Positions 1 to 39,733 of a stretch of DNA of 39,733 nt are shown piece by piece (positions within the stretch are counted from its first letter, which is position 1; each line of letters starts with the position of its first letter). The notes under the pieces were generated by a model. That model made no database searches. It was not told the origin of the DNA and saw only the letters and a list, made by a program, of their open reading frames with translations. Origin of the DNA: a virus; the IMG/VR virus record IMGVR_UViG_3300031084_000003, positions 1 through 39,733 of that record, one strand, 5' to 3'. A program made the translations under genes and the position numbers.

Positions 1-127
1 GCTGACTCGTTCCCGTTCGGCAAAATGCAGTCTGATTCCGTCGGTGGTTATGCCGACGTGCTGATCGTTCAGTAATGGCCCTCGCCCGTTTCAGAGAAGT
101 GGCTGACCGTGTGGACGCATTGCTGGT
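1..127. repeat. Terminal direct repeat, copy 1 (identical to 39607..39733); overlap of a circular or circularly permuted assembly
   Basis: Read directly: bases 1..127 are the same string as 39607..39733. So 1..75 is a second copy of the 3' end of CDS 39361..39681, and the unique length is 39606 bp. Confidence 0.95.
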
Positions 128-9022: not shown

Positions 9023-11509
9023 ATGGCGAACAAACTTGCTCTCGGCCTGGTGATTGGCGGGGCCGTCAGCTCGACGGTAGGGGCGGCGTTTAAGGACGTC
9101 AGCAACAAAATCAAGAAGCTGGAGGAACAAGGCAACAAGGCGCGGGTGCTGCAAAAGACCATCGGCGAAACCATGCGTTTGCGTGAGGAATGGCTCAAAG
9201 CGCACGCGGCCGGCGAAAAGGGCGCTGATGCGCTACGGCGAAAGCTGGAGAACAATCTGGACGGCCTGCGTAAGCAGGGCGTTGAGGTGCGCAACCTGAC
9301 CAAGGCTTACGCGGCCATGGGGCAGGCGGCGACAAAGGCCGAACTCAAGGCCAAGGGCCATATGCAACTTGATGCTGGTAAACAGCAGTTGAAAAGCAGC
9401 ATAGGCCAGGCGGCGGCCGCCACGGCAGCGATGGCTGTTCCTACGAAGGTGAGCGCGGACTATGGCGCGATCATTCGTGACATTGCGATCAAGGCAAACA
9501 TTGCCAACACGCCCGAAGAAGCGCAGATGTCGAAAACGATCATCGGCACGTCGCGTGATACCGGCATGGCCCGTAATCAGGTGGCCGAGGTGGTCAACGC
9601 CCTGGTGGGGGCTGGCATGGAGCTTGATAAGGCCATGTCTTACGCGCCGGTGGCGGCCAAGTTTGCAATTGGGCAGGGGTCGGACGGTGGCGAAACGGCG
9701 CGCATGATTAACGCGCTGGGGCAGAACGCCAAAATCTCCGATCCGGCGGTGATGCAAAAGGCGCTGGAGGCCATCGCCTATCAGGGCCAGGCCGGCAGTT
9801 TTGAAGCCGCCGACATGGCGCGTTGGTTCCCCGAGCTGCTGGCGGGCATGGGCAAGATCGGTATCACCGGCATGGATGCGGTGACGCAACTGGGCTCAAT
9901 GCTACAGGTGCAAATGAAGACCGCCGGCGGCGCTGATGAAGCGGCCAACAACCTCAAAAACTGGATGGAGAAAATCGGTTCTGGCGATACGGTCAAGGCC
10001 TACAAGGATGCCGGAATTGACTACCAAGGGTCGATGAATACCGGCCTGCAAAACGGTAAATCCACGCTGGAATCAAGCTTTGAGCTGGCACAAAAGTACA
10101 TCGCGGCCACGGACCCTAAGAAGGCCGCCGCAATGGCGGCCGCTACGGCGAAGATCAGTAAGGAGACGGACCCCGAGAAGGCCAAGGCCATGATTGCATC
10201 CCTGGAGCAGGCTTTGCGTACCGGGGATCTGTTCGCAGATATGCAGGTTAAAGGCGCTTTGACGGCCTATATGCAGAACAAAGAGCTGTACGCCCAGCTC
10301 AAGAAAGACTCGGCCTCGGCCACTGGCATCCTTGATAAGAACCTTGAGGAGCGCCGGCAGGCTTCAGCGCAGAAATGGGCCGAAATGGCCCAGGGCATGG
10401 ATGACGCTATGCGCGCCATTGGTGATGCGTTCCGGCCGGTCACTGACAAAGTGGCGGATGGCCTGGCATACGTCTCCCAGGGGCTGGCCAAGCTGTCGGA
10501 CGAATCGCCCCGGGTTGTGACCGGTATCGGCGCTGCCGTTGCCGCCGTGATCGCTTTCCAGACCGCTATGAGCGGATTCAAGATCGCCAAGGGCCTGCTC
10601 AACCTTGGGCGCGGTTCGTTGATGGGTAATCCCAATATCCCGCAAAAAGTCATTGTTACCAACATGCCTATGGGTGGATCTGGTGGCATGGATTTGGGCG
10701 GCGTCGATGACGCTGGCGGTAAGGATGGGAAGGGCAAGGGCAGGGGTGGCGGCCGTGGCCGAAGTCCCGGCCGTGGCGTTGGCGCGGGTCTGAAGGGGCC
10801 GGCAGTGTTGGCCGTAATTGAGGCCGGTTTTAAGGTCAAAGACACTTACGACAACGCTGAAACCCAGAACGAAAAAGCTGAAGGCTATGGCGCGGCGGCT
10901 GGTGGTCTTGCCGGCACGCTTGCCGGTGCGGCGGCCGGTGCGGCCATTGGTTCGGCGGTGCCAGTAATAGGCACCATCTTGGGTGGCCTGATTGGGGGTT
11001 ATCTGGGAAGCCTGGGCGGCGACGCTTTGGGCGGTGCCATCGGCAAGTCGATGTTTGGCTCTGACGAAAGCAAGAACGCCATGCCTGTGGCCGGCCCGCT
11101 GATGATGAAGGATGCCGGCAAGGACGTCCCGCCGGTACTGGGGGATATCGCCAAGTCGTTCGCGCCTTCGCGCGCGGGGCCTCTTGTGTTGGCCAATCCA
11201 GGCCCAGGCACGCTGCCGGGAACGCCTGGCACGGTCAATCCGGGTGATGCCGCGCGCTCCATGATGATGCCCCAGGCTAGTGCAGACGCGGTTGCGGCAC
11301 CACTTGCGGCGGCTGTGGTGGCGAAGGTGCAGCCGGCGAATATCGAATCCAAGGTTGATATTCACGCGCCTATCTCGCTCACGGTGCAAGGCGACGTGAA
11401 AGACCCGAACGAGATCCTGGCCCAGCTGCGGCCGATGATGGAGCAGCAACAACGGGAGATCGCCCAGCAGTTGGAAAACCGCAAGCTCTACGATGCGCCC
11501 AATATCTAA
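9023..11509 (+). CDS. T: Tail tape measure protein
   Basis: 828 aa, Ala/Gly-rich and coiled-coil, with a Gly-rich hydrophobic segment. P2 T position. Confidence 0.9.
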   Translation: MANKLALGLVIGGAVSSTVGAAFKDVSNKIKKLEEQGNKARVLQKTIGETMRLREEWLKAHAAGEKGADALRRKLENNLDGLRKQGVEVRNLTKAYAAMGQAATKAELKAKGHMQLDAGKQQLKSSIGQAAAATAAMAVPTKVSADYGAIIRDIAIKANIANTPEEAQMSKTIIGTSRDTGMARNQVAEVVNALVGAGMELDKAMSYAPVAAKFAIGQGSDGGETARMINALGQNAKISDPAVMQKALEAIAYQGQAGSFEAADMARWFPELLAGMGKIGITGMDAVTQLGSMLQVQMKTAGGADEAANNLKNWMEKIGSGDTVKAYKDAGIDYQGSMNTGLQNGKSTLESSFELAQKYIAATDPKKAAAMAAATAKISKETDPEKAKAMIASLEQALRTGDLFADMQVKGALTAYMQNKELYAQLKKDSASATGILDKNLEERRQASAQKWAEMAQGMDDAMRAIGDAFRPVTDKVADGLAYVSQGLAKLSDESPRVVTGIGAAVAAVIAFQTAMSGFKIAKGLLNLGRGSLMGNPNIPQKVIVTNMPMGGSGGMDLGGVDDAGGKDGKGKGRGGGRGRSPGRGVGAGLKGPAVLAVIEAGFKVKDTYDNAETQNEKAEGYGAAAGGLAGTLAGAAAGAAIGSAVPVIGTILGGLIGGYLGSLGGDALGGAIGKSMFGSDESKNAMPVAGPLMMKDAGKDVPPVLGDIAKSFAPSRAGPLVLANPGPGTLPGTPGTVNPGDAARSMMMPQASADAVAAPLAAAVVAKVQPANIESKVDIHAPISLTVQGDVKDPNEILAQLRPMMEQQQREIAQQLENRKLYDAPNI

Positions 11510-16055: not shown

Positions 16056-16949
16056 GTGAGGTCCGTTAGCCAGTTGCTGCCAGGCTCCATTGAGGCCGCC
16101 GCGTATGCGGGCCTGTCTGATATCCCCGACCTACTGCCCAAGCGTAAGAAGTTGCCACTGCGCGACCGCGCGGGCCAGCAGCGCCGGCTAACAGGCGTCA
16201 CCGCCGATCAGGGCCGCATGTTCGGCGGCCTGTTCAATAAGGCCATTGCCCGCGTTCATGAAGAAGCCGACAAGCGCGAGGGCAAATTCCTGCGCCGCTT
16301 TGACGATATCAACGACTCCCGCACCTATCAGCAACGATGGGACGCCCTGGCCGAGCTGATAGGCCCGCTATGCGCGCGCCTCGATCTGGCGCAGTTGGTG
16401 GTGGGTTGGCTGGACAAGAATGGCAAGATGCACGTTAACCGTCAGCGCAAGTTGTGCGAGGACTCCGGCGTTCGCGAGTGGACACTATCGCGCCTACTGA
16501 CCGATCTGGAGCGTGCCGGCTATGTGCGTCGCAAGTTCCGCCGGATCTTTCACAAGGGCACGAAGTGGATAACGCGCGTAACGATCCACGTACGCCGCCG
16601 CTTTTTTATCGACCTGGGGCTAGGCCACGAACTGGCCGAAGCGCAAACCCGTAAGCGCGTCGAGCGTCGTACTGTGTTGGGCGTGGCTCAGAACAACCGC
16701 AAAGCCGCCTTTACCAAAGAGCAGGCGGCCGCCAAGGTTCGCAAGGACTCCCACGAAGGCGCCCAGCGCGCCGCCAGGCGCAAGCAGCAGCAACAGCAGG
16801 GCGTCGACAAGGTGGAATATAAGCGCGCCTGGACAGCTGCCTGGGTGGAGTTCGCCCAGTCTCGCCCAGACCTTACCGGCCGACAGCGCTCCGAGGTGTT
16901 TACCCGGGAACACCCACACTTCGCCGTTCACCCCGACAGCCTCCCCTAG
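16056..16949 (+). CDS. repA: Plasmid-type replication initiator, IncFII RepA-like (start uncertain: TTG 15942, GTG 16056 or ATG 16218)
   Basis: The segment RWDALAELIGPLCARLD......L....G.....LSRLLTDLERAGYV......I.....FFIDLGL, followed by a basic R/K/Q tail, parallels the R1/R100 RepA layout by eye. The extreme N-terminus of the long ORF looks non-coding. Confidence 0.55.
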   Translation: MRSVSQLLPGSIEAAAYAGLSDIPDLLPKRKKLPLRDRAGQQRRLTGVTADQGRMFGGLFNKAIARVHEEADKREGKFLRRFDDINDSRTYQQRWDALAELIGPLCARLDLAQLVVGWLDKNGKMHVNRQRKLCEDSGVREWTLSRLLTDLERAGYVRRKFRRIFHKGTKWITRVTIHVRRRFFIDLGLGHELAEAQTRKRVERRTVLGVAQNNRKAAFTKEQAAAKVRKDSHEGAQRAARRKQQQQQGVDKVEYKRAWTAAWVEFAQSRPDLTGRQRSEVFTREHPHFAVHPDSLP

Positions 16950-17250
16950 CTTCTCTCAGACTGCACCGCCCCCCGGCGGTGCCTTCGCACGTCTGTACCC
17001 CGCCAAAGCCCGTACGGGCGCATACAGCCCCACAAATTCCCCCTCTGATCGTCCGAACACCCCCGTTTCCGAGCAAATCCCCTCCCGAAATCCGAAGGCG
17101 CGCACCGTTCAAGCGGGAGGCTTTTAAATATCTGCAAGATTAGGCGTTCACTGGTACCGAAGGGCTTTTAAAGATCCGCTTTAAAGCTCATAAACCATGC
17201 CAACTGTGCATGACTGACTGACGAAATAAGAATGCCTGCCCACTTCGCGC
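16950..17250. other. Candidate origin of replication downstream of repA
   Basis: An ORF-free, C-run-rich stretch, then AT-rich DNA carrying two 13/14-identical repeats GGCTTTTAAA(T/G)ATC at 17119..17132 and 17163..17176, 44 bp apart. Confidence 0.35.
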
Positions 17251-17610: not shown

Positions 17611-17650
17611 AATGACGAAATAACGAATTGACGAAATAACGAAACGCAAA
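17611..17650 (+). repeat. ACGAA box array A (4 boxes, exact 8-bp phasing)
   Basis: ACGAA at 17615, 17623, 17631 and 17639, separated by AT-rich trinucleotides (TGACGAAATAACGAATTGACGAAATAACGAA). Confidence 0.9.
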
Positions 17651-17653
17651 TAA

Positions 17654-17706
17654 GGTTCATGCCAAGGCCGGGCATTACGCCAAGGCCGCTATCCGGGGTA
17701 TGAACC
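17654..17706 (+). promoter_or_regulatory. Leader module 1: inverted repeat GGTTCAT/ATGAACC enclosing two CCAAGGCCG repeats 18 bp apart, ending 1 nt before the ATG at 17708
   Basis: Read directly. Paralogous to 18537..18585. Confidence 0.7.
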
Positions 17707-17707
17707 G

Positions 17708-18022
17708 ATGACTAGGCAAGATCCGCACGTGGTCGCTTTGAAGGCGGCATTTTTTGACCGCTACGCAATCCAACTCAATGCACGCATTGCCGGGGGATCG
17801 CAGCGCGATTGCCTGGTGTTGGCCGTGCCTGATTTTCGCAAGAGCGCCGAGATAGACCGCTCGCAGTTAGTGAACATCGGTATTTGGCTTGAGTCCCAAG
17901 GGTATTATTTGTGCGAGGATTACGGGCGCGTCGGCCTGCTGGCTTCGCCGTCTGGCTGGACCTGCTGGAACGCCGGCGTGTCGGTCAAGGTGCGTTATTG
18001 TCCTGGGCGTTTAACGAAATAA
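17708..18022 (+). CDS. Hypothetical protein (104 aa)
   Basis: ORF between arrays A and B. The last codons (LTK, stop) are encoded by array B. Confidence 0.6.
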   Translation: MTRQDPHVVALKAAFFDRYAIQLNARIAGGSQRDCLVLAVPDFRKSAEIDRSQLVNIGIWLESQGYYLCEDYGRVGLLASPSGWTCWNAGVSVKVRYCPGRLTK

Positions 18023-18045
18023 CGATTTAACGAAATGACGAATGA
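18011..18045 (+). repeat. ACGAA box array B (4 boxes, 8-bp phasing)
   Basis: ACGAA/ACGAT at 18014, 18022, 18030 and 18038, followed by the 9-bp-stem hairpin ACCGCCGGC-aca-GCCGGCGGT (18045..18065). Confidence 0.9.
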
Positions 18046-18085
18046 CCGCCGGCACAGCCGGCGGTTTAGCATTGGAGGCTGAAGG

Positions 18086-18505
18086 ATGTTTGTTTTGCTG
18101 CTGCGTGACGGGTCACGCACTGAGATAGAGGCGCCAGATTTTTGGGAGGCTATGCGCGTAGCGCTCCGCCTCGACGCGGCGCAACTTGAAGTGCCGGGCG
18201 ATCCGCCCCGCTCGATGACGGCGGATCAAGTTCGGCATGAGTTGGCCCTTGATCGTCCGGGTCTGTTCGATCCGTACGCGCCTGACTGGTCTCCACCGAC
18301 GGCGGCCGAGTTTCGCGAGTTGTTGCGGGTTGCTGATCTTTCCGCGAGCAAGGCCGGCATGCTGGTGGGGGTCGACTCTCGCAAAATCCGCAAGTGGGCG
18401 GGTGACGAAAAAGCGGACATGCCTTATGCCGTGTGGCGCCTTCTGAGCATCTACGCTGGGCTTGCAGAAGCACCAAACCATCCAGCTAACGAAATAACGA
18501 AATAA
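18086..18505 (+). CDS. Putative DNA-binding protein with a C-terminal XRE-type helix-turn-helix
   Basis: 139 aa. AEFRELLRVADLSASKAGMLVGVDSRKIRKWAGDEK.MPYAVWRLL is an XRE-like HTH pattern. GGAGG SD. The last codons (EITK, stop) are encoded by array C. Confidence 0.65.
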   Translation: MFVLLLRDGSRTEIEAPDFWEAMRVALRLDAAQLEVPGDPPRSMTADQVRHELALDRPGLFDPYAPDWSPPTAAEFRELLRVADLSASKAGMLVGVDSRKIRKWAGDEKADMPYAVWRLLSIYAGLAEAPNHPANEITK

Positions 18506-18530
18506 CGAATTGACGAAATAACGAATTGAT
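18486..18530 (+). repeat. ACGAA box array C (5 boxes, 8-bp phasing)
   Basis: ACGAA at 18489, 18497, 18505, 18513 and 18521. Confidence 0.9.
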
Positions 18531-18536
18531 TTTAAA

Positions 18537-18585
18537 GTCTGCTCCAAGGCCGGGGATTGACCCAAGGCCGCACCCTGGAGCAGAC
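18537..18585 (+). promoter_or_regulatory. Leader module 2: inverted repeat GTCTGCTCC/GGAGCAGAC enclosing two CCAAGGCCG repeats 18 bp apart, ending 2 nt before the ATG at 18588
   Basis: Read directly. Same architecture as 17654..17706, but the arms have a different sequence. Confidence 0.7.
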
Positions 18586-18587
18586 CG

Positions 18588-18791
18588 ATGACTACCGCGC
18601 AACTTGCGGCCCGCATGCAAAAAGTGGCCGACCAACTCCCTACCTCCCGCCTGATTGAAGCTGTCCACCACCTGGGCGGCGCCATCTTGCCGCCGACCGA
18701 TAACATGGTGCGCGCGGCGCTGCTGTCAGCTTATGAGGCGCGCAAAGGTGGCGAAGCCATGGATGCGCTGATGGATCAAATCGGACTTTAA
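18588..18791 (+). CDS. Hypothetical protein (67 aa)
   Basis: ORF starting ATGACT, like the 17708 ORF. Helical, with no motif recognised. Confidence 0.55.
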   Translation: MTTAQLAARMQKVADQLPTSRLIEAVHHLGGAILPPTDNMVRAALLSAYEARKGGEAMDALMDQIGL

Positions 18792-18837
18792 GCATGATCG
18801 CCCCGGCTGCGCCGGGGCTGTTGATGGAGCTGCAAGC

Positions 18838-20529
18838 ATGGCTAAGAAGAAAACCGACGCCCAGGAACTGCCGCTGGAGCAGCAGCCGCTGTTCCTCAAA
18901 ACTCTTGAATTTCTGCCGGCCGAACGTGCCGCCCTGGAGCAACTGGCCGGCGATATGCTGCGGCTGTTCAACGATGCCATGGTTGCCAGCAGTGCGCGCG
19001 ACATTGAAACGTCAGTGCTTCGGTATAAAGCGGTGGTCTATCGATTGAATGGCGATACGTTCATGGGGTGCGCCACGGATGAGGGTGCAGGGGGGCAGTT
19101 GCTCAAGCAGTTAGCCGCGCCTGCAGGTGTGGTGCCAGGCTGGGGACAGGCCGGCCAATATTTGCTTGATATCGACGGCATGCGGCTGCGCGTGAACGTA
19201 GACCCCTGGAGCATGGGAGGCATGCACAGTTTGAGTTTTCGCGCTGTAGACGCCTCGGCCAAGTTCATCAGTGAAACAGGCTACCTGAGCCAGTTCCTGC
19301 ACACTGACAAGCATGTGGGCCAAACCTTCGGCCAGGCGGTGCGCGCCCTGGTGGAGCAGCTACTGCATGGCGAGTTCAAGCCGAAGGCCATCCGCGAGGA
19401 AGATCGCGCCAAGATCACCGTGCCGGCCTGGCTTGTGCCGGCACTGCAAGGCGTTACGCGTAACGGTCAGTTGAATATGCCGCTGTCGGGTGAGCCGCAA
19501 TTGACTGAGCCGGTAGCGAAGGTGCCACTGAGCAACGCCAAGCGGCAGCAACTGCACCGGCAGCGCCTCAAGGAGCGCGCGCAGACCGAAGGGCTTAAAG
19601 TTATCCCGCTGACCCAAGAAGAGCGCATGGTGTTGAGCCTGGGCGTGCTGGCTCATGAGGATTTGTTTCATCGGCCGAAGGACTGGGCCACCAGCAAGAA
19701 GCCTGGATTTGATTCGCTGCTGATCAAGCTGTGGCCCGAAGGCGATGACGGCCGTTATTTGGCTGAGCCTGAGCGTAGCACCCGCCGGCCTGCTGGGTTC
19801 CTGCGCGATGAGTTGAAGTATCAGCGCGAGCGAGTCACCCGCCTTGAGATTGAAAACCGCGCGCTGCGCGCCGGTGAGCCAGTAGCCGGTGAGGTGGTCG
19901 TGTCCGCTGATGACCCGCATAACTGGGCGCGCACCGTGAAGCTGACGCGGGATGAAGATTCGCTGATGCTGTGGGCTTTCAGTGTGTTTTTCACGGCACG
20001 CGCTGACCTCGATCACTTGAAGTCGCCTTTAGTGCTGGAGAACCTAGAGACGATATTTCAGGGTTGCCCCATGTGGACCGAGAAATTCAAGGCCCAGCTG
20101 GATCAGGATCAGGGGATAATCAACGGCACCAAATACCGGGAAAAAGAGGCTAAGCGCGGCTGGAAATGTTACGAAGATGAGCGAAAGCAAAACGTCCAGT
20201 TGTTCAAAGAGCGGGCCGCTGATCGCGCTGAAATCGAGCGTCTAAAAGCCGCGCTCAACGAGATTGCCGCCGAGGTTGGGGCACCAGCTGCGGCGCCTAT
20301 GGTGCGCAAGCATGATGGCAAGCCCATGGATTTGGAGGGCCTGAATCGTGAAGTTGATTGGCTGGTAGGTGAGCTGAACAAGGCTACGGCCAAGGCCGAC
20401 GCGGTGGAAAGAGAGCAGGTTTTGCTGGAGTCTGAGCGAAACAAGGCGTTTGAGGCCAACAAGACTTTGACCGAGCGCCTACGCCGCGCAGGCCTGCCGA
20501 CCGATTACCGCAAGCAACCGGGCGAGTGA
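18838..20529 (+). CDS. Large hypothetical protein (563 aa) with a coiled-coil C-terminal third
   Basis: GGAG SD. Protein-like composition throughout. C-terminal heptad-like charged region (ERLKAALNEIAAE..., KATAKADAVEREQVLLESERNKAFEANKTLTERL). No catalytic motif recognised. Confidence 0.75.
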   Translation: MAKKKTDAQELPLEQQPLFLKTLEFLPAERAALEQLAGDMLRLFNDAMVASSARDIETSVLRYKAVVYRLNGDTFMGCATDEGAGGQLLKQLAAPAGVVPGWGQAGQYLLDIDGMRLRVNVDPWSMGGMHSLSFRAVDASAKFISETGYLSQFLHTDKHVGQTFGQAVRALVEQLLHGEFKPKAIREEDRAKITVPAWLVPALQGVTRNGQLNMPLSGEPQLTEPVAKVPLSNAKRQQLHRQRLKERAQTEGLKVIPLTQEERMVLSLGVLAHEDLFHRPKDWATSKKPGFDSLLIKLWPEGDDGRYLAEPERSTRRPAGFLRDELKYQRERVTRLEIENRALRAGEPVAGEVVVSADDPHNWARTVKLTRDEDSLMLWAFSVFFTARADLDHLKSPLVLENLETIFQGCPMWTEKFKAQLDQDQGIINGTKYREKEAKRGWKCYEDERKQNVQLFKERAADRAEIERLKAALNEIAAEVGAPAAAPMVRKHDGKPMDLEGLNREVDWLVGELNKATAKADAVEREQVLLESERNKAFEANKTLTERLRRAGLPTDYRKQPGE

Positions 20530-23727: not shown

Positions 23728-23755
23728 ATAAAAAAGCCCCGCCAGGTGCGGGGCT
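23728..23755 (-). terminator. Terminator of the par operon (minus strand)
   Basis: AGCCCCGC-caggt-GCGGGGCT, with the T-run on the minus strand (A-run 23730..23735 on plus). Confidence 0.7.
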
Positions 23756-23772
23756 TGGTTTGCTGCTAGCGA

Positions 23773-24033
23773 TCACTTCCCGCCCTTAGCGTCCTTGAGT
23801 AGGGCAAAGCCTTGGCGAAGAACATCAACCATGCTCATCTTGTGCATGGCCGCAAACATCTTAAGCTCATGCTTGAATTGAGCGTCCACCTTGAAGTTGG
23901 CTGTTACAAGTTCTTCTGGTGCCGCCTGGTGGGTGTGGCCGGCTTTGCTCAGTGCTTCGGCAGCCAGTGGCGAGGCCGGGGCGATGCCCTTCGTGGAGTT
24001 GCGGCGAGGTGGCTTCGGGGCTTGTACTGTCAT
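23773..24033 (-). CDS. parG: Ribbon-helix-helix DNA-binding protein, ParG-like centromere-binding/repressor candidate
   Basis: 86 aa. A disordered basic N-terminus, then ANFKVDAQFKHELKMFAAMHKMSMVDVLRQGFALL, a strand-helix-helix pattern like TP228 ParG. Directly downstream of the ParA-like gene. Confidence 0.65.
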   Translation of the reverse strand: MTVQAPKPPRRNSTKGIAPASPLAAEALSKAGHTHQAAPEELVTANFKVDAQFKHELKMFAAMHKMSMVDVLRQGFALLKDAKGGK

Positions 24034-24045
24034 GGCGCGACGTCC

Positions 24046-24072
24046 TTTAATTCGTTAATTCGTCAATTCGTT
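24046..24072 (-). repeat. ACGAA box array D (3 boxes) between the parA stop and parG start
   Basis: TTCGT at 24051, 24059 and 24067 on the plus strand (ACGAA on the minus strand), 8-bp phasing. Confidence 0.85.
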
Positions 24073-24718
24073 ACTTGGATTGTAGCGCAGTAGCGCGAGC
24101 GATGATTGCGCTAATTAGTTGTTCGGCCTGGCCGCGCAACCCTTTGTGTGAAACTTCGATAACGGATAAGCCTACGTCCATGGCGCGGCTGTAGCTGACC
24201 TTTTGCGGGAGGTAGCCGGCTAATACGTGATAAGGCTTTGCGCCGAGGTAAGCTTGAGCTTCTTCAAGTTCGGCTTGGCTGTCGCCTACGTGATTCAGGG
24301 CGAAGGCGATTCGCGCGGTCGGGATGCTGTGTTTGTAATGGAGAGCGTCGGCCAGCTCTACGGCCGGCTCTAGATCGTCCAAAGCCAGGCCGGTAGGTAT
24401 CACCAGCAGGTCGCAAGCTTCGGCCATGGCGGCCGTGTCCTTGCTGGCGCGTGGGGCGCCGTCGAAGATCATTGCGTCGTAGTCGTCAGCGCGTGCCAGC
24501 GCGTGCCCCATGGAGCCAAACTGCTCTACTGATACCTGCGGTGTGTGTCCGCGCTGCAAGCGACGCACGCCCCAGCGTGTACTGGTCGACTGGTTTAGGT
24601 CAAAGTCGGCGATCTTAACGGCCCAGCCATTTTGCGCGAGTCCGACAGCCGTGCCGCGTGCGTTGGTGGATTTGCCAGGTCCACCCTTCTGTGTTGCGAA
24701 GCCAATGAATAGTGCCAC
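24071..24718 (-). CDS. parA: Partition ATPase, small ParA/ParF-type (deviant Walker A)
   Basis: 215 aa. N-terminal FATQKGGPGKST is the KGGxGKS/T deviant Walker A. GTG start with a GAGGG SD. Confidence 0.85.
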   Translation of the reverse strand: MALFIGFATQKGGPGKSTNARGTAVGLAQNGWAVKIADFDLNQSTSTRWGVRRLQRGHTPQVSVEQFGSMGHALARADDYDAMIFDGAPRASKDTAAMAEACDLLVIPTGLALDDLEPAVELADALHYKHSIPTARIAFALNHVGDSQAELEEAQAYLGAKPYHVLAGYLPQKVSYSRAMDVGLSVIEVSHKGLRGQAEQLISAIIARATALQSK

Positions 24719-24732
24719 GGTCGAAGCCCTCT

Positions 24733-24775
24733 AATTCGTCAATTCGTCAATTCGTCAATTCGTTAATTCGTTAAC
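24733..24775 (-). repeat. ACGAA box array E (5 boxes), between the par promoter and the parA start
   Basis: TTCGT at 24735, 24743, 24751, 24759 and 24767 on the plus strand. Confidence 0.9.
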
Positions 24776-24783
24776 GCTGGGCC

Positions 24784-24813
24784 AGTATAGGCGTTCCAGT
24801 GTTACAGGATCAA
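24784..24813 (-). promoter_or_regulatory. Candidate sigma70 promoter of parA-parG (TTGATC-N18-TATACT on the minus strand)
   Basis: The reverse complement of GATCAA (24808..24813) and AGTATA (24784..24789). Flanked on both sides by ACGAA arrays in opposite orientation. Confidence 0.55.
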
Positions 24814-24814
24814 G

Positions 24815-24842
24815 AAATAACGAATTAACGAAATAACGAAGT
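24815..24842 (+). repeat. ACGAA box array F (3 boxes, inverted relative to array E)
   Basis: ACGAA at 24820, 24828 and 24836. Confidence 0.85.
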
Positions 24843-24844
24843 AT

Positions 24845-25584: not shown

Positions 25585-25599
25585 TACACGTAAAGTGTA
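25585..25599. promoter_or_regulatory. Operator-like site TACAC-GTAAA-GTGTA (OL candidate)
   Basis: Same TACAC-N5-GTGTA dyad as in the cI-cro region. It lies between the cI terminator and the leftward operon. Confidence 0.55.
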
Positions 25600-25608
25600 A
25601 ATTCCAGC

Positions 25609-25634
25609 AATAAAAAAGCCCTTATACAAGGGCT
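25609..25634 (-). terminator. Terminator downstream of cI (hairpin AGCCCTT-atac-AAGGGCT, with T-runs on both strands)
   Basis: Read directly. Confidence 0.7.
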
Positions 25635-25641
25635 GTTTTTA

Positions 25642-26307
25642 CTATCTGTCGTGGGATATTCGGACCACGCGACCCACAATATCCAGTTCCGCCAGAGCTT
25701 CAGGTGTCAAAGTGCTATCAGGGTATTGCTGTGAGTCCCCTGCTTTGAGAGTGAAGGTGCTATTTAATTCCGGGCAAATCCAGCGAACCCAAACAGTGCC
25801 GGCTACCACAATGCCAAAAAGGTCGGCGCCGCGAACAGTGGTTTGCGCGCCATCTAATAGCAGTTCGTCGCCTTCAGCGATAAGTGGAGCCATGCTTGTG
25901 TCGATCTGCTTAATGCAAAGCAGCTTGTTTCGGTTCATGCCACGGCTTTCGATGTAATCAAGGCTGAAAGCGGTGTTATCCGTGACTTGCGAGAGTGTCA
26001 GCAGGCCGTTTTTGGTCGAGATATTTGGCGGGTTGGCTGTCACATAATTGGACGTGACCGCACTCAAGCTGTCGTTGTCGGTGTAGCCCTGGATCCAGGC
26101 GGGGGTTTTGCCAAATAGCTTGGCAAGCAAGATAACTTGATCGGTTGGCGGCATCCGCAACCCAAGCTCCCAGTTGGAATACCGGGAGTAAGTCATATTC
26201 GTACCCGACAAGTCGCTGAGTCGTTTGGCCGTTTCCTCAAGGGTCCAGCCGGTGGCCTGGCGACAATCTTTAAGCCGCTGAGCCACTACTTGTACTAATT
26301 CAGACAT
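25642..26307 (-). CDS. cI: CI-type repressor: N-terminal XRE HTH plus C-terminal S24 (LexA-like) autopeptidase domain
   Basis: ATG at 26307 with a GAGAG SD (the ORF opens at TTG 26313). HTH WTLEETAKRLSDLSG. C-terminal DTSMAPLI (Ser) and TLKAGD (Lys), as in S24 peptidases. Divergent from the cro-like gene. Confidence 0.85.
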   Translation of the reverse strand: MSELVQVVAQRLKDCRQATGWTLEETAKRLSDLSGTNMTYSRYSNWELGLRMPPTDQVILLAKLFGKTPAWIQGYTDNDSLSAVTSNYVTANPPNISTKNGLLTLSQVTDNTAFSLDYIESRGMNRNKLLCIKQIDTSMAPLIAEGDELLLDGAQTTVRGADLFGIVVAGTVWVRWICPELNSTFTLKAGDSQQYPDSTLTPEALAELDIVGRVVRISHDR

Positions 26308-26383
26308 GCGCAATCTCTCATAGGGCGCCGTGAGGTTTCACGCCTTGGCAATTGTTTAATACTAGCGTCTATCTGGTGAAATA

Positions 26384-26398
26384 TACACTTTAAGTGTA
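26384..26398. promoter_or_regulatory. Operator-like site TACAC-TTTAA-GTGTA (OR region)
   Basis: Read directly, in the cI/cro intergenic region. Confidence 0.6.
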
Positions 26399-26446: not shown

Positions 26447-26461
26447 TACACCAATCGTGTA
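26447..26461. promoter_or_regulatory. Operator-like site TACAC-CAATC-GTGTA (OR region), nested in a longer inverted repeat AATAGAC..ACACCAAT / ATTGGTGTCTATT
   Basis: Read directly. Confidence 0.6.
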
Positions 26462-29060: not shown

Positions 29061-30329
29061 ATGGCGCAAACCCTTAAAGTCCAAATATCTGACGCTGCTA
29101 TTAGGCGGTATGCGGAGGATCTGACCATTGGTGAGCTGAAAGACCCACGGCACCCGTTGCGCTTTCGTTACCGTAACGACAGAAGCAAAGGTAGTTGGCA
29201 CCTGATCCGTTTTGACAAGGGGGGCAAGTGGAGAAAGGCCGCCAACTGGCCCGAGGTTCCGGCACGGCTGATGATCGACAGTGTGCCCGTGGTGATGGCT
29301 CGCCTGATGACTGACCCCGAAGCGGTGGCCACCGTGGATGGCTGGGAGTCAGTTGGCCAAGTATTGCGCTGGTACGTCGACCGGCTGAAGGTCGATAGAG
29401 GGCTATCCAAGGATCGGCGCTCGTCCTCGATGTCGGTGATCAATCGCCAGTTGTTGCCCGCCCTGGACACGCTACCGCTATGCAAGATCAACCGTGACAC
29501 CCTCGACCGGCATTTGGTCTGGCACATGCAGGAAGAGTACAGCCTGGGCTACGTTAAATCGGCCCTGGACGTACTGAAGGTGATTTTTGGGCGAGCCTTG
29601 ATCCTCAAGAAAATCACCGTAAACCCGCTGGCTGGTGTGACCTTCGGCAACTTTACCAAGGTCAAGATCCGGCCCAAGGGTGCACGCCTTCGTCATGTCG
29701 CCGTTGTGGATCTGCTGGCTGATTGGGCGGAGGCCTTCCAGGCTGATCCTGCTGGCATTGCCTTAATGGTGCTGATGCTGACCCATGGCACGCGGATCAC
29801 TGAAACCCGCCTGGCCAAGTGGAAGAACGTCCACCTACAGGAAGGGGAGTGGTTTATTCCTGGGGCTGATACCAAGTCGAAACGCGACCACCTGTTGCCG
29901 CTGACGCCTGCCGCTGCGGCCTTCCTTGACCGGTACCGAGAAAACCAAAAGGCGCGGGGGTATGACGGGGCCTATCTGTTCCCGTCTGCTACTCACCCCG
30001 GCCGGCCTATGTCGCGTAGCCAGGCGTTTGCCGTCTTCACTCGCTACGGCGCCGGCGAATGGACCAGTCATGACCTGCGCAAACTGGCGCGTACCTGCTG
30101 GGCCAAATTCCGCGTGGATAGCCTAGTGGTGAAGCTGCTGCTCAACCACTCCCTGACCGATTTGGAGGCGACCTACTTTCAAGACCGAGGCGAGGACATC
30201 AAGCGCGACGCCCTGGAGCGCTGGCACGAATGGCTCAACGCACAGGGTTTTGATGCGTTGCAGGACAAGACAGGAGCAAGACGCGCCGTTAAGCCCACTG
30301 CCGTAGACCCTGCGGGATGGCTGGCTTAG
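29061..30329 (+). CDS. int: Tyrosine integrase, P4-like (N-terminal arm-binding domain plus C-terminal catalytic domain)
   Basis: 422 aa. N-terminus LKDPRHPLRFRYRNDRSKGSWHLIR (DUF4102-like). C-terminus HGTRITE...HDLRKLARTCW...LLNHS....ATYF contains the R..H.xR..Y catalytic pattern. Confidence 0.9.
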   Translation: MAQTLKVQISDAAIRRYAEDLTIGELKDPRHPLRFRYRNDRSKGSWHLIRFDKGGKWRKAANWPEVPARLMIDSVPVVMARLMTDPEAVATVDGWESVGQVLRWYVDRLKVDRGLSKDRRSSSMSVINRQLLPALDTLPLCKINRDTLDRHLVWHMQEEYSLGYVKSALDVLKVIFGRALILKKITVNPLAGVTFGNFTKVKIRPKGARLRHVAVVDLLADWAEAFQADPAGIALMVLMLTHGTRITETRLAKWKNVHLQEGEWFIPGADTKSKRDHLLPLTPAAAAFLDRYRENQKARGYDGAYLFPSATHPGRPMSRSQAFAVFTRYGAGEWTSHDLRKLARTCWAKFRVDSLVVKLLLNHSLTDLEATYFQDRGEDIKRDALERWHEWLNAQGFDALQDKTGARRAVKPTAVDPAGWLA

Positions 30330-39360: not shown

Positions 39361-39681
39361 ATGGCCATGGCCACGAATCATGTAAGCAGTGGTGAAACCG
39401 TTACGCTGCCGGCCCCAACTGGCGGTTCTGTCGCCGGCATTCCGCAGATGATCAACGATCTGGCGGTGATCCCGATGAGTACCGGTCCCAAGGGAACGAT
39501 CATCGTTTACCGCCTCTGTGGCGTCTGGAGCGTCCCGGCGGATGCGGCTCTGAAAGCTGGCATGAAAGCCAACGTCAAGGCGGGCGCGCTGGTGCTGCCT
39601 GCCACCGCTGACTCGTTCCCGTTCGGCAAAATGCAGTCTGATTCCGTCGGTGGTTATGCCGACGTGCTGATCGTTCAGTAA
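39361..39681 (+). CDS. Small head protein, DUF2190-like (decoration/cement candidate)
   Basis: ATG at 39361 preceded by AGGAGAAAA. 106 aa, beta-rich, directly after the capsid gene as in Gifsy/lambda-like heads. Confidence 0.7.
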   Translation: MAMATNHVSSGETVTLPAPTGGSVAGIPQMINDLAVIPMSTGPKGTIIVYRLCGVWSVPADAALKAGMKANVKAGALVLPATADSFPFGKMQSDSVGGYADVLIVQ

Positions 39682-39733
39682 TGGCCCTCGCCCGTTTCAG
39701 AGAAGTGGCTGACCGTGTGGACGCATTGCTGGT
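39607..39733. repeat. Terminal direct repeat, copy 2 (identical to 1..127)
   Basis: Read directly. Confidence 0.95.

What the first reader, a model, noticed from the sequence alone, without database searches (positions are those of the whole stretch)
23773..24842. ParF/ParG-like partition cassette with operator/centromere arrays, carried by a phage that also encodes an integrase
A 215-aa deviant-Walker-A ATPase (KGGPGKST) is followed by an 86-aa ribbon-helix-helix protein. Its candidate promoter (TTGATC-N18-TATACT on the minus strand, 24784..24813) is sandwiched between five ACGAA boxes (24735-24767) and three inverted boxes (24820-24836). Three more boxes lie in the parA-parG spacer (24051-24067). 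All are phased at exactly 8 bp.

This matches the type Ib ParF-ParG paradigm, in which the RHH protein autoregulates the operon and marks the centromere on short phased boxes. Partition systems are expected in plasmid prophages (P1, N15) and are unusual in an integrating lambdoid/P2-tail mosaic.

Together with RepA this points to one of three things:
- a dual lifestyle;
- stabilisation of a transient episome;
- reuse of ParA/ParG as a genome-wide regulator, since the same boxes recur at 17.6-18.5 kb.

The cassette sits in the leftward early operon, downstream of an operator-like site, so it may be repressor-controlled.
Basis: partly seen in the sequence, partly recalled or inferred. Interest (0 to 1): 0.7.

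Follow-up and report, generated by a model that had tools for sequence, protein, structure and literature searches.

The report
Partition cassette of a Pseudomonas phage-plasmid
This is a plasmid-type DNA-partition module (a small ParA ATPase, a small DNA-binding protein and 24 short phased binding boxes) carried by a Pseudomonas phage that most likely lives as a circular plasmid, not in the host chromosome; it is a well-formed new example of a known kind of system.

Summary
A 215-aa ParA with KGGPGKST is followed by an 86-aa ribbon-helix-helix (RHH) protein. The TTGATC-18-TATACT promoter sits between 3 inverted and 5 direct ACGAA boxes. Three more boxes lie in the parA-RHH spacer, and 13 lie in three arrays at 17.6-18.5 kb. 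All are phased at exactly 8 bp.

About 20 relatives keep the promoter hexamers and all six arrays, while the promoter spacer varies freely. The layout (tetramer plus 4-bp AT-rich spacer, direct and inverted, around the promoter) is that of TP228 ParG/OF-parH. The distal arrays overlap two further conserved promoters, as with pSM19035 omega.

The "integrating phage" premise is not supported:
- The window is a circular contig with a 127-bp terminal overlap.
- Close homologues of the RHH protein and the recombinase were never seen on contigs above 61 and 77 kb.
- A syntenic relative is deposited as a complete 42.8-kb circular P. aeruginosa plasmid.
- In the two chromosomal elements examined, the recombinase homologue is a second recombinase beside a canonical integrase.

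Best reading: a type Ib partition and autoregulation module of a phage-plasmid, whose RHH protein probably also represses a KlcB-like gene cluster. It is a new member of a known kind, of moderate interest.

The parts
24071..24718 (-). ParA: small deviant-Walker-A partition ATPase (215 aa, KGGPGKST), with no N-terminal DNA-binding domain
   Evidence: Pfam MipZ/AAA_31/CbiA. NCBIfam ParA_partition scores 93 bits, below the 180-bit cutoff. phrog_164 ParA-like, E 1.7e-30. Best PDB sequence matches are TP228 ParA 5u1g and ParF 4dzz, E about 2e-7, over the full length.
23773..24033 (-). Centromere-binding / repressor protein (86 aa): a basic flexible N-terminal tail (PKPPRRNSTKG), then a ribbon-helix-helix domain (strand about 42-49 LVTANFKV, helices 51-63 and 68-83)
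   Evidence: AF2 model with pLDDT 84-86 over the helices. In Foldseek, 16 of 17 hits are RHH proteins and ParG 1p94 is first, but no hit is significant. The family profile's top PDB hit is ParG, E 0.011. hhalign against ParG gives E 9.5e-5, probability 59%. 15 of 66 family members hit Pfam RHH_10 and 1 hits ParG.
23734..23756 (-). Intrinsic terminator closing the par operon
   Evidence: 9-bp GC-rich stem followed by TTTTAT.
24784..24813 (-). Ppar promoter, TTGATC-18-TATACT
   Evidence: Found by the scan. Both hexamers are invariant in 19 relatives, while the spacer between them varies freely.
24732..24771 (-). Array A: 5 direct RACGAATT boxes between the -10 hexamer and the ParA start (operator, candidate centromere)
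   Evidence: Conserved in relatives with 3-5 copies.
24820..24843 (+). Array B: 3 boxes upstream of the -35 hexamer, inverted relative to par
   Evidence: Relatives carry 3-6 copies.
24048..24071 (-). Array C: 3 direct boxes in the parA-RHH spacer, overlapping the ParA stop codon and abutting the RHH ribosome-binding site
   Evidence: Present in all relatives, with 6 boxes in L003.
17615..17656 (+). Array D1 (4 boxes) with an embedded promoter: -35 TTGACG at 17628-17633, 17 nt, -10 TAAGGT at 17651-17656. It lies upstream of orf 17708-18022.
   Evidence: Boxes and both hexamers are invariant in 14 sequences, while the upstream flank is not conserved.
18014..18067 (+). Array D2 (4 boxes) overlapping the stop of orf 17708-18022, followed by a conserved GC hairpin (18046-18064) and TTT. 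It lies upstream of orf 18086-18505.
18489..18538 (+). Array D3 (5 boxes) with an embedded promoter, TTGACG-17-TAAAGT (18510-18538). It lies upstream of orf 18588-18791 and the KlcB-like gene.
   Evidence: Promoter scan; conservation.
17708..20529 (+). Gene cluster behind the distal arrays: orfs of 104, 139 and 67 aa plus a KlcB-like 563-aa protein. This is the candidate RHH regulon.
   Evidence: ORFs. 80% nucleotide identity to the 'KlcB family protein' gene of P. fluorescens A506 plasmid. KlcB_N and KlcB_3rd Pfam hits on the orthologues in L001 and L020.
16056..16949 (+).
   Evidence: No Pfam, NCBIfam or PHROG hit. AF2 pLDDT 83; only weak fold matches to MarR, TFE, RepA_N and ORC. Most homologues with long contigs sit on 34-45 kb contigs, though two Azotobacter ones sit on 142-kb and 4.87-Mb contigs.
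29061..30329 (+). Tyrosine recombinase (422 aa) in the rightward early operon: probably not the lysogeny integrase, candidate multimer resolvase
   Evidence: Pfam Phage_integrase catalytic domain only. Homologues of at least 54% identity are never on contigs above 77 kb. The 46-47% homologues in chromosomes are second recombinases. Relatives L010 and L012 have a box array upstream of this gene.
25585..25599 (.). CI-type operator palindrome TACACGTAAAGTGTA, just after the cI terminator (25617-25634) and upstream of orf83, the LuxR-type gene and par
   Evidence: 6 sites against 0.34 expected.
1..127 (.). 127-bp stretch identical to 39607-39733: the circular-assembly overlap. The unique genome is 39,606 bp.
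   Evidence: Two IMG/VR relatives show the same 127-nt signature.

Best explanation
The cassette is the type Ib (ParF/ParG-like) partition and autoregulation module of a circular phage-plasmid.

**Shown**
- There is a small deviant-Walker-A ParA and a downstream 86-aa protein with a predicted RHH fold.
- 24 boxes of tetramer ACGA plus a 4-bp AT-rich spacer form six arrays phased at 8 bp.
- The autonomous Ppar promoter is bracketed by inverted and direct boxes.
- All of this is conserved across Pseudomonas relatives. The same design occurs in Aeromonas and Vibrio relatives and in true Pseudomonas plasmids.

**Inferred mechanism**
- RHH dimers bind one box each and coat the arrays cooperatively.
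- At Ppar this represses the operon (autoregulation).
- The coated arrays (those with at least 4 contiguous boxes: A, D1, D2, D3) serve as centromeres.
- The basic N-terminal tail of the RHH protein (conserved K15-G16) stimulates ATP hydrolysis by nucleoid-bound ParA. Plasmid prophage copies are thereby separated before division.
- The same protein also occludes the -35/spacer of two promoters inside arrays D1 and D3. It thus represses a KlcB-like gene cluster once it has accumulated. This resembles pSM19035 omega, whose binding sites are both operators and centromeres.
- The tyrosine recombinase is more likely a multimer resolvase, or has another role, than the lysogeny integrase.
For: - **ParA:** TP228 ParF/ParA are its best solved relatives, with Pfam and PHROG ParA hits.
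- **RHH protein:**
- **Arrays:** real and non-random. All six are kept in place, orientation and phase in about 20 relatives, with varying copy number.
- **Promoter footprint:** the hexamers are invariant and the spacer is free.
- **Distal promoters:** they are embedded in the arrays and conserved.
- **Same design elsewhere:** isolated Vibrio phage VPHZ6 and an Aeromonas 37-kb plasmid.
- **Protein and site change together:** a 113-kb conjugative P. coronafaciens plasmid has box ACGCA with strand NLR, instead of ACGAA with NFK.
- **Published ParG design:** ACTC tetramers, 4-bp AT spacers, direct and inverted, one dimer per box (PMC3130281).
- **Published omega design:** arrays overlap several promoters and act as centromeres, with at least 4 contiguous repeats needed (PMC9499535).
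- **Plasmid state:** 127-bp circular overlap in the window and in two relatives. Contigs of 49 RHH homologue clusters reach at most 61 kb, and 16 of them peak at 34-42 kb. pPAC1.3b is a complete circular 42.8-kb plasmid syntenic with the window.
- **Integrated prophage L024:** it has a canonical integrase next to tmRNA. No par genes were called in its immunity region, where CsrA and a small orf follow the GerE gene instead.
Against: - No binding, stability or localisation data exist. Every functional step is inferred.
- RHH assignment rests on a moderate AF2 monomer model (mean pLDDT 68), non-significant Foldseek E-values and a borderline profile match. The window protein itself hits no Pfam family.
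- Circular contigs from metagenomes can also arise from replicating or concatemeric phage DNA.
- No recognised plasmid replication initiator or origin was found.
- A tyrosine recombinase is present, so occasional integration cannot be excluded.
- Arrays B and C have only 3 boxes, fewer than omega needs for ATPase activation.
- The ParA score is below NCBIfam's equivalog cutoff.
Confidence: 0.75

Rival explanations
1. Dual lifestyle: the phage normally integrates through its tyrosine recombinase. The par cassette only stabilises a transient or alternative episomal form.
For: A 422-aa tyrosine recombinase is present. Phage-plasmids that alternate between states are mentioned in the literature (PMC7969092). 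One relative lies on a 60.9-kb contig of unknown structure.
Against: Close RHH homologues and recombinase homologues of at least 54% identity were never on a contig above 61 or 77 kb, despite many isolate assemblies. No arm-type DNA-binding domain was detected. In the two chromosomal contexts examined, the homologue is a second recombinase beside a canonical integrase. No tRNA or att-like feature is present in the window.
Confidence: 0.1
2. Regulator only: ParA and the RHH protein do not partition DNA. The RHH protein is a transcription factor for Ppar and the 17.6-18.5 kb promoters, and ParA is a co-regulator or has another role.
For: Four of the six arrays (A, B, D1, D3) sit on or beside promoters. 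RHH proteins are mostly repressors (Foldseek hits).
Against: The same ParA-RHH-array module occurs on true conjugative plasmids and on a complete circular phage-plasmid. ParA has the full ParF-type motifs. Arrays C and D2 lie at gene ends with no promoter. In omega and ParG, the regulator and centromere roles coexist.
Confidence: 0.08
3. The 8-bp boxes are iterons or origin repeats bound by the 297-aa winged-helix protein. They are not sites for the RHH protein.
For: Array D1 lies about 660 bp downstream of that gene. The arrays are AT-rich direct repeats. TRF also reports a 16-bp super-period.
Against: The boxes bracket the par promoter and fill the parA-RHH spacer in every relative. This includes a conjugative plasmid on which no homologue of that protein was looked for. 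The box sequence changes together with the RHH strand residues. An 8-bp unit with inverted copies is typical of RHH arrays, whereas iterons are usually 17-22 bp (from general knowledge, not tested here). No other repeats were found around the gene.
Confidence: 0.05

Closest known systems
TP228 parFGH (ParF ATPase, ParG RHH protein, OF operator and parH centromere)
   Same: Both have a small ParA of about 210 aa, and ParF/ParA of TP228 are the best solved matches. Both have a downstream protein of about 80 aa with a flexible basic tail and an RHH domain. In both, the sites are tetramer boxes separated by 4-bp AT-rich spacers (8-bp period), in direct and inverted orientation, overlapping the operon promoter, about 20 boxes in all (PMC3130281).
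   Different: The tetramer is ACGA(A), not ACTC. The RHH protein is only remotely similar to ParG (hhalign E 9.5e-5, no Pfam ParG hit for the window protein). Boxes also lie inside the operon (parA-RHH spacer) and in three arrays 6-7 kb away at other promoters. The carrier is a phage genome.
pSM19035 delta/omega (Firmicutes inc18 plasmids)
   Same: An RHH protein binds contiguous short non-palindromic repeats. These overlap the promoters of several operons and double as centromeres. Arrays are scattered over the replicon, and one dimer binds per repeat (PMC9499535).
   Different: Omega uses 7-bp heptads (WATCACW) in arrays of 7-10, whereas here the units are 8 bp in arrays of 3-5. No sequence similarity to omega was detected. 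The host lineage and regulated genes differ (a KlcB-like cluster, not copS or epsilon-zeta).
Plasmid prophages P1 (ParA/ParB/parS) and N15 (SopA/SopB with dispersed centromeres)
   Same: Each is a temperate phage maintained as a low-copy plasmid by a ParA-type partition system. N15 has centromere sites scattered through the phage genome (from my own knowledge; not retrieved).
   Different: P1 and N15 use type Ia systems, with a large ParA and an HTH ParB. N15 is linear with a protelomerase. Here the system is type Ib with an RHH protein on a circular genome.
Unstudied relatives: P. aeruginosa plasmid pPAC1.3b (NZ_CP097559.1), A. veronii plasmid AP022265.1, Vibrio phage VPHZ6 (OQ267696.1), and pPT23A-type plasmids of the P. 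syringae group
   Same: They share the same module of repressor, small orfs, ParA and RHH. Each also has inverted boxes, a promoter and direct boxes at 8-bp phase. pPAC1.3b shares the whole early region, the recombinase and the tail genes at 30-61% amino-acid identity.
   Different: Box sequences differ in some (GCGAA in pPAC1.3b, ACGCA in P. coronafaciens). The P. syringae-group plasmids are conjugative plasmids, not phages. No paper on any of them was found in the library searched.

Membership tests
Type Ib plasmid partition system | Small ParA (about 200-220 aa) with a deviant Walker A (KGGxxK[ST]) and no N-terminal HTH domain | tested here: met
   215 aa with KGGPGKST. Full-length alignment to ParF (206 aa), including the D-x-D and hydrophobic-DGA motifs.
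Type Ib plasmid partition system | Small centromere-binding protein encoded directly downstream, usually with an RHH fold | tested here: met
   86-aa orf 37 nt downstream. RHH fold is supported by the AF2 model, and 16 of 17 Foldseek hits are RHH proteins. Family members hit Pfam RHH_10. Confidence in this assignment is moderate.
Type Ib plasmid partition system | Centromere made of short repeated motifs next to the operon, bound by the small protein | tested here: inconclusive
   Arrays are present, non-random and conserved, and they co-vary with the protein. Binding itself cannot be tested with these tools.
Type Ib plasmid partition system | Confers segregational stability on a low-copy replicon | not testable with these tools
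   Indirect evidence only: the module occurs on complete circular plasmids.
ParG family (Pfam PF09274) | Significant sequence match to the ParG model | tested here: not met
   The window protein has no Pfam hit at E<=0.01. Only 1 of 66 family members hits ParG, at E 0.0015. The profile against 1p94 gives E 0.011, and hhalign gives 59% probability. It works like ParG but is not a demonstrable family member.
Phage-plasmid | Complete set of virion, packaging and lysis genes | tested here: met
   Terminase, portal, protease-capsid, P2-type tail, endolysin, spanin and CI-type repressor.
Phage-plasmid | Prophage maintained extrachromosomally | tested here: inconclusive
   Circular contig, circular relatives and replicon-sized contigs only. 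A complete circular plasmid record exists for a syntenic relative. There is no direct observation for this particular genome.
Phage-plasmid | Recognisable plasmid replication function | tested here: not met
   The 297-aa winged-helix protein matches no Rep family. Its fold matches are weak. No iterons were found.
   Only the catalytic domain was detected, and the gene is internal to the early operon. No chromosomal context was found among close homologues. The integrated elements examined carry a separate canonical integrase.

The most novel reading that the evidence does not exclude
The RHH protein may act as a second, plasmid-style master repressor of the phage-plasmid. On entry into a naive cell the array-embedded promoters (D1, D3, Ppar, and in some relatives the recombinase promoter) would fire unrepressed. 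This would give a burst of KlcB-like establishment or anti-defence functions and of partition proteins. The promoters would then shut down as the RHH protein coats the arrays, and the coated arrays would become several dispersed centromeres. Partition, establishment and multimer resolution would thus be one regulon, replacing the int/xis module of integrating relatives.
Probability: 0.35. Interest if true: 0.6.

Novelty: new member of a known kind. Interest (0 to 1): 0.45.

Why it matters
- **A tractable Pseudomonas phage-plasmid group.** The cassette marks an apparently undescribed group of 34-43 kb phage-plasmids in Pseudomonas, and similar repressor-ParA-RHH modules occur in Aeromonas and Vibrio elements. 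No paper in the library searched couples phage-plasmids with RHH-type partition. Well-defined phage-plasmids are scarce in Pseudomonas.
- **A clean cis/trans system to test.** The module has 24 boxes, three conserved promoters, and natural variants in which box and protein change together. It can test how RHH arrays serve both as operators and as centromeres.
- **A lesson for annotation.** The word "integrase" alone is a poor predictor of lifestyle. Here the recombinase is probably not the lysogeny enzyme.
- **Possible role in gene spread.** One relative already carries a Tn3-family transposon, so such elements may matter for gene dissemination.

Tried and rejected
- **Megablast of 15-27 kb:** no phage match. 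Among plasmids, the only annotated-function match was the KlcB-like gene; other matches covered hypothetical proteins or unannotated DNA.
- **RHH protein against PDB by sequence:** nothing for the single sequence. The narrow alignment gave only spurious picornavirus VP1 hits. hhalign of the narrow alignment against ParG was not significant, E 0.1. A wider family profile was needed.
- **'RepA':** no Pfam, NCBIfam or PHROG hit. Foldseek gave only weak generic winged-helix hits. No iterons were found. The label is rejected as unproven.
- **Rfam on the whole window:** no family matched.
- **Conserved leaders of D1 and D3:** RNAalifold found only one covarying pair, so no RNA structure is claimed.
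- **Genome-contig scan:** only one locus was returned.
- **Sample of origin:** look-ups gave nothing useful.
- **Small orfs at 20.5-23 kb, 26.5 kb and 28.6 kb:** no Pfam hits.
- **Protelomerase / linear plasmid idea:** considered because of similar marine 'telomere phages'. Rejected because the enzyme is an ordinary Phage_integrase-type recombinase (422 aa) and the contigs close as circles.
- **Literature:** searches for pPAC1.3b, VPHZ6 and the N15 late-gene paper found nothing usable.
Full report
**1. Observation**

The region reads exactly as described.
- ParA is 24071-24718(-), 215 aa, beginning MALFIGFATQKGGPGKST.
- An 86-aa orf follows at 23773-24033(-). An intrinsic terminator closes the operon at 23756-23734.
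- Read in the direction of par transcription, the control region is: three TTCGT boxes, TTGATC, 18 nt, TATACT, five RACGAATT boxes, a Shine-Dalgarno sequence, then GTG.
- Three more boxes fill the parA-RHH spacer, overlapping the ParA stop codon.
- Every box is 8 bp from the next.
- The promoter scan returns this promoter as the only sigma-70-like hit in 2.2 kb.
- Tandem Repeats Finder finds all arrays with period 8. It also finds three more at 17.61, 18.01 and 18.49 kb.
- AATTCGT occurs 14 times against 3.3 expected.
- Runs of at least 3 phased boxes never occur in 200 shuffles.
- In total there are 24 boxes in six arrays.

**2. The proteins**

ParA hits Pfam MipZ/AAA_31/CbiA and phrog_164. 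It also hits NCBIfam ParA_partition, but below that model's cutoff. Its best solved relatives are TP228 ParA (5u1g) and ParF (4dzz), aligned over the full length.

The 86-aa protein has no Pfam hit. Its close homologues are all Pseudomonas proteins of 62-97% identity.
- AlphaFold gives two confident helices (51-63 and 68-83, pLDDT about 85). They follow the conserved LVTANFKV stretch and a low-confidence basic tail.
- 16 of 17 Foldseek matches are RHH proteins and ParG (1p94) is first, but no E-value is significant.
- An exhaustive profile search found 184 remote relatives of 54-110 aa with the same plan: M..PKPP.KK..KG.PP tail, linker, then RHH domain.
- With that wider profile, ParG is the top PDB sequence hit (E 0.011).
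- hhalign against ParG gives E 9.5e-5 and 59% probability.
- 15 of 66 family members hit Pfam RHH_10 and one hits ParG.

I therefore accept "RHH, ParG-like in plan" but not "member of the ParG family".

**3. Conservation of the DNA sites**

In 20 related loci from IMG/VR, NCBI and Logan assemblies, all six arrays are present at the same places. Orientation and phase are the same, and copy number varies from 3 to 6.

The Ppar alignment is a textbook footprint. CTTGATCC and CCTATACTCG are invariant, the spacer between them is free, and the boxes on both sides are kept.

The distal arrays behave as follows.
- D1 and D3 each contain a TTGACG -35 hexamer inside a box. A conserved TAAGGT or TAAAGT follows 17 nt later. 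The sequence upstream of each array is unconserved.
- D2 overlaps the end of orf 17708-18022. A conserved GC hairpin follows it.

The genes behind these arrays are three small orfs and a KlcB-like protein. That gene is 80% identical at DNA level to a plasmid pA506 gene.

**4. The same module elsewhere**

- *P. aeruginosa plasmid pPAC1.3b.* ParA is 54% identical. Boxes are GCGAA at 8-bp phase around the promoter and in the spacer.
- *Aeromonas veronii 37-kb plasmid and isolated Vibrio phage VPHZ6.* Both have TTCGT x3-4, a promoter, then ACGAA x3-4 in front of ParA plus an RHH protein of about 80 aa. The module lies downstream of the repressor gene.
- *P. coronafaciens 113-kb conjugative plasmid.* The layout is identical, but the boxes are ACGCA and the recognition strand reads VPMNLRV instead of VTANFKV. 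This is limited co-variation of protein and site.

This co-variation, and the arrays' constant association with the par operon, is the best available evidence that the RHH protein is what binds the boxes.

**5. Comparison with known systems**

In TP228, OF is eight ACTC tetramers in direct and inverted orientation. They are separated by 4-bp AT-rich spacers, and each binds one ParG dimer. Twelve more boxes form parH, and both sites act as centromeres (PMC3130281). The unit here (ACGA plus AWTR) has the same geometry.

In pSM19035, omega binds arrays of heptads that overlap the promoters of copS, delta and omega. Those arrays are the centromeres, and at least 4 contiguous repeats are needed to activate the ATPase (PMC9499535). 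The distal promoter-embedded arrays here match that logic.

**6. Lifestyle**

Evidence for a plasmid state:
- The window has an exact 127-bp terminal overlap, so it is a circular assembly of 39,606 bp.
- Two IMG/VR relatives (37.1 and 34.3 kb) show the same signature.
- Other relatives break at different genome positions.
- Across 49 RHH homologue clusters the longest contig is 61 kb, and 16 clusters peak at 34-42 kb.
- Recombinase homologues of at least 54% identity reach at most 77 kb.
- pPAC1.3b is a complete circular 42.8-kb plasmid from a pure culture. It shares the repressor, Cro, the LuxR-type gene, ParA, the early orfs, the recombinase (61%), the winged-helix protein (44%) and tail genes with the window.

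Evidence on the recombinase:
- Recombinase homologues of 46-47% identity do occur in chromosomes, but as second recombinases.
- One lies in a prophage next to tmRNA that has its own arm-type integrase. No par genes are called in that prophage's immunity region; CsrA and a small orf follow the GerE gene instead. That prophage is distant, sharing only the recombinase and the holin by tblastn.
- The other lies in a P4-type island with its own integrase.
- In relatives L010 and L012, a box array precedes the recombinase gene.
- Phage-plasmids are known to carry recombinases for dimer resolution (PMC7969092).

A stable plasmid prophage is therefore the most likely state, and a par system is expected in one. 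Weak points remain. Metagenomic circles can come from replicating phage DNA. No bona fide Rep protein or origin was identified.

**7. Local transcription context**

The cI-type gene (25642-26313) ends in a strong terminator (25634-25617). A palindrome TACACGTAAAGTGTA follows at 25585-25599. It matches two palindromes in the cI/cro spacer. No terminator separates them from par, so read-through is possible. Par nevertheless has its own conserved, box-flanked promoter, which would maintain expression in the lysogen.

**8. Verdict**

Family membership in ParG is not shown, and the "integrating phage" anomaly is not supported.

The most likely function is partition plus autoregulation, plus omega-like repression of a KlcB-like cluster, in a circular phage-plasmid (confidence about 0.75 for the core and lower for the regulon). 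It is a new member of a known kind. Interest is moderate at 0.45. The value lies in defining an apparently unstudied phage-plasmid group and a clean model for dual operator/centromere RHH arrays.

Noticed in passing
window 1-127 and 39607-39733: Exact 127-bp terminal direct overlap, so the window is a complete circular assembly of 39,606 bp. Two IMG/VR relatives (37,112 and 34,323 bp) have the same 127-nt overlap.
   Followed up: yes
window 17662-17688 and 18546-18573: The 5' leaders downstream of arrays D1 and D3 share a duplicated CCAAGGCCG motif flanked by short inverted repeats, and it is nearly invariant across relatives. There is no Rfam hit, and RNAalifold finds only one covarying pair. 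It may be a site for another protein or a small RNA element.
   Followed up: partly
window 25585-25599, 26384-26398, 26447-26461 (imperfect: 15711, 30845, 30864): Palindromes TACAC-N5-GTGTA (6 against 0.34 expected), probably operators of the CI-type repressor. One lies after the cI terminator, in front of orf83, the LuxR-type gene and par. Two imperfect copies sit at 30.85 kb, in front of the late/lysis region.
   Followed up: partly
window 29061-30329; L024 10001-11350; L025 10001-11233: The tyrosine recombinase belongs to a clade that is a second recombinase in both chromosomal elements examined, beside a canonical arm-type integrase. It is probably not the lysogeny integrase.
   Followed up: partly
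L010 5212-5235; L012 4978-5009: In two relatives, a 3-4-box ACGAA array also lies about 125 nt upstream of the recombinase gene. This ties that gene to the RHH regulon. The window has no such array.
   Followed up: partly
It matches no Rep family, and no iterons lie nearby. Most homologues with long contigs lie on 34-45 kb contigs of Pseudomonas, but Azotobacter homologues reach 142 kb and one sits in a 4.87-Mb chromosome. Two 17-nt AT-rich repeats (GGCTTTTAAAKATCYGC) lie at 17119-17179.
   Followed up: partly
window 18838-20529: This 563-aa protein is 80% identical at DNA level to the 'KlcB family protein' gene of P. fluorescens A506 plasmid. It is a plasmid-derived gene inside a phage genome, under an array-embedded promoter.
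   Followed up: partly
window 18046-18067: A conserved GC hairpin (CCGCCGGC-ACA-GCCGGCGG) followed by TTT lies directly after array D2, between orf 17708-18022 and orf 18086-18505. It may be an attenuator or partial terminator.
   Followed up: no
L003 about 10646-10700; L031 2880-2990 and 3655-3695: Box variants exist. L003 has four ACGCATT plus two ACGAATT boxes in the parA-RHH spacer. The P. coronafaciens plasmid uses ACGCA boxes with strand NLR instead of NFK. pPAC1.3b uses GCGAA with strand DFNFK. These are natural specificity variants suited to a recognition-code study.
   Followed up: partly
L021 (NZ_CP097559.1) 37206-42774; L001 13505-14141: Relatives carry cargo in the variable region. 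pPAC1.3b has a Tn3-family transposon, a resolvase and RelE/HigA-type toxin-antitoxin genes. L001 and L002 have HicAB. Toxin-antitoxin modules and transposons are typical of plasmid-state elements.
   Followed up: no
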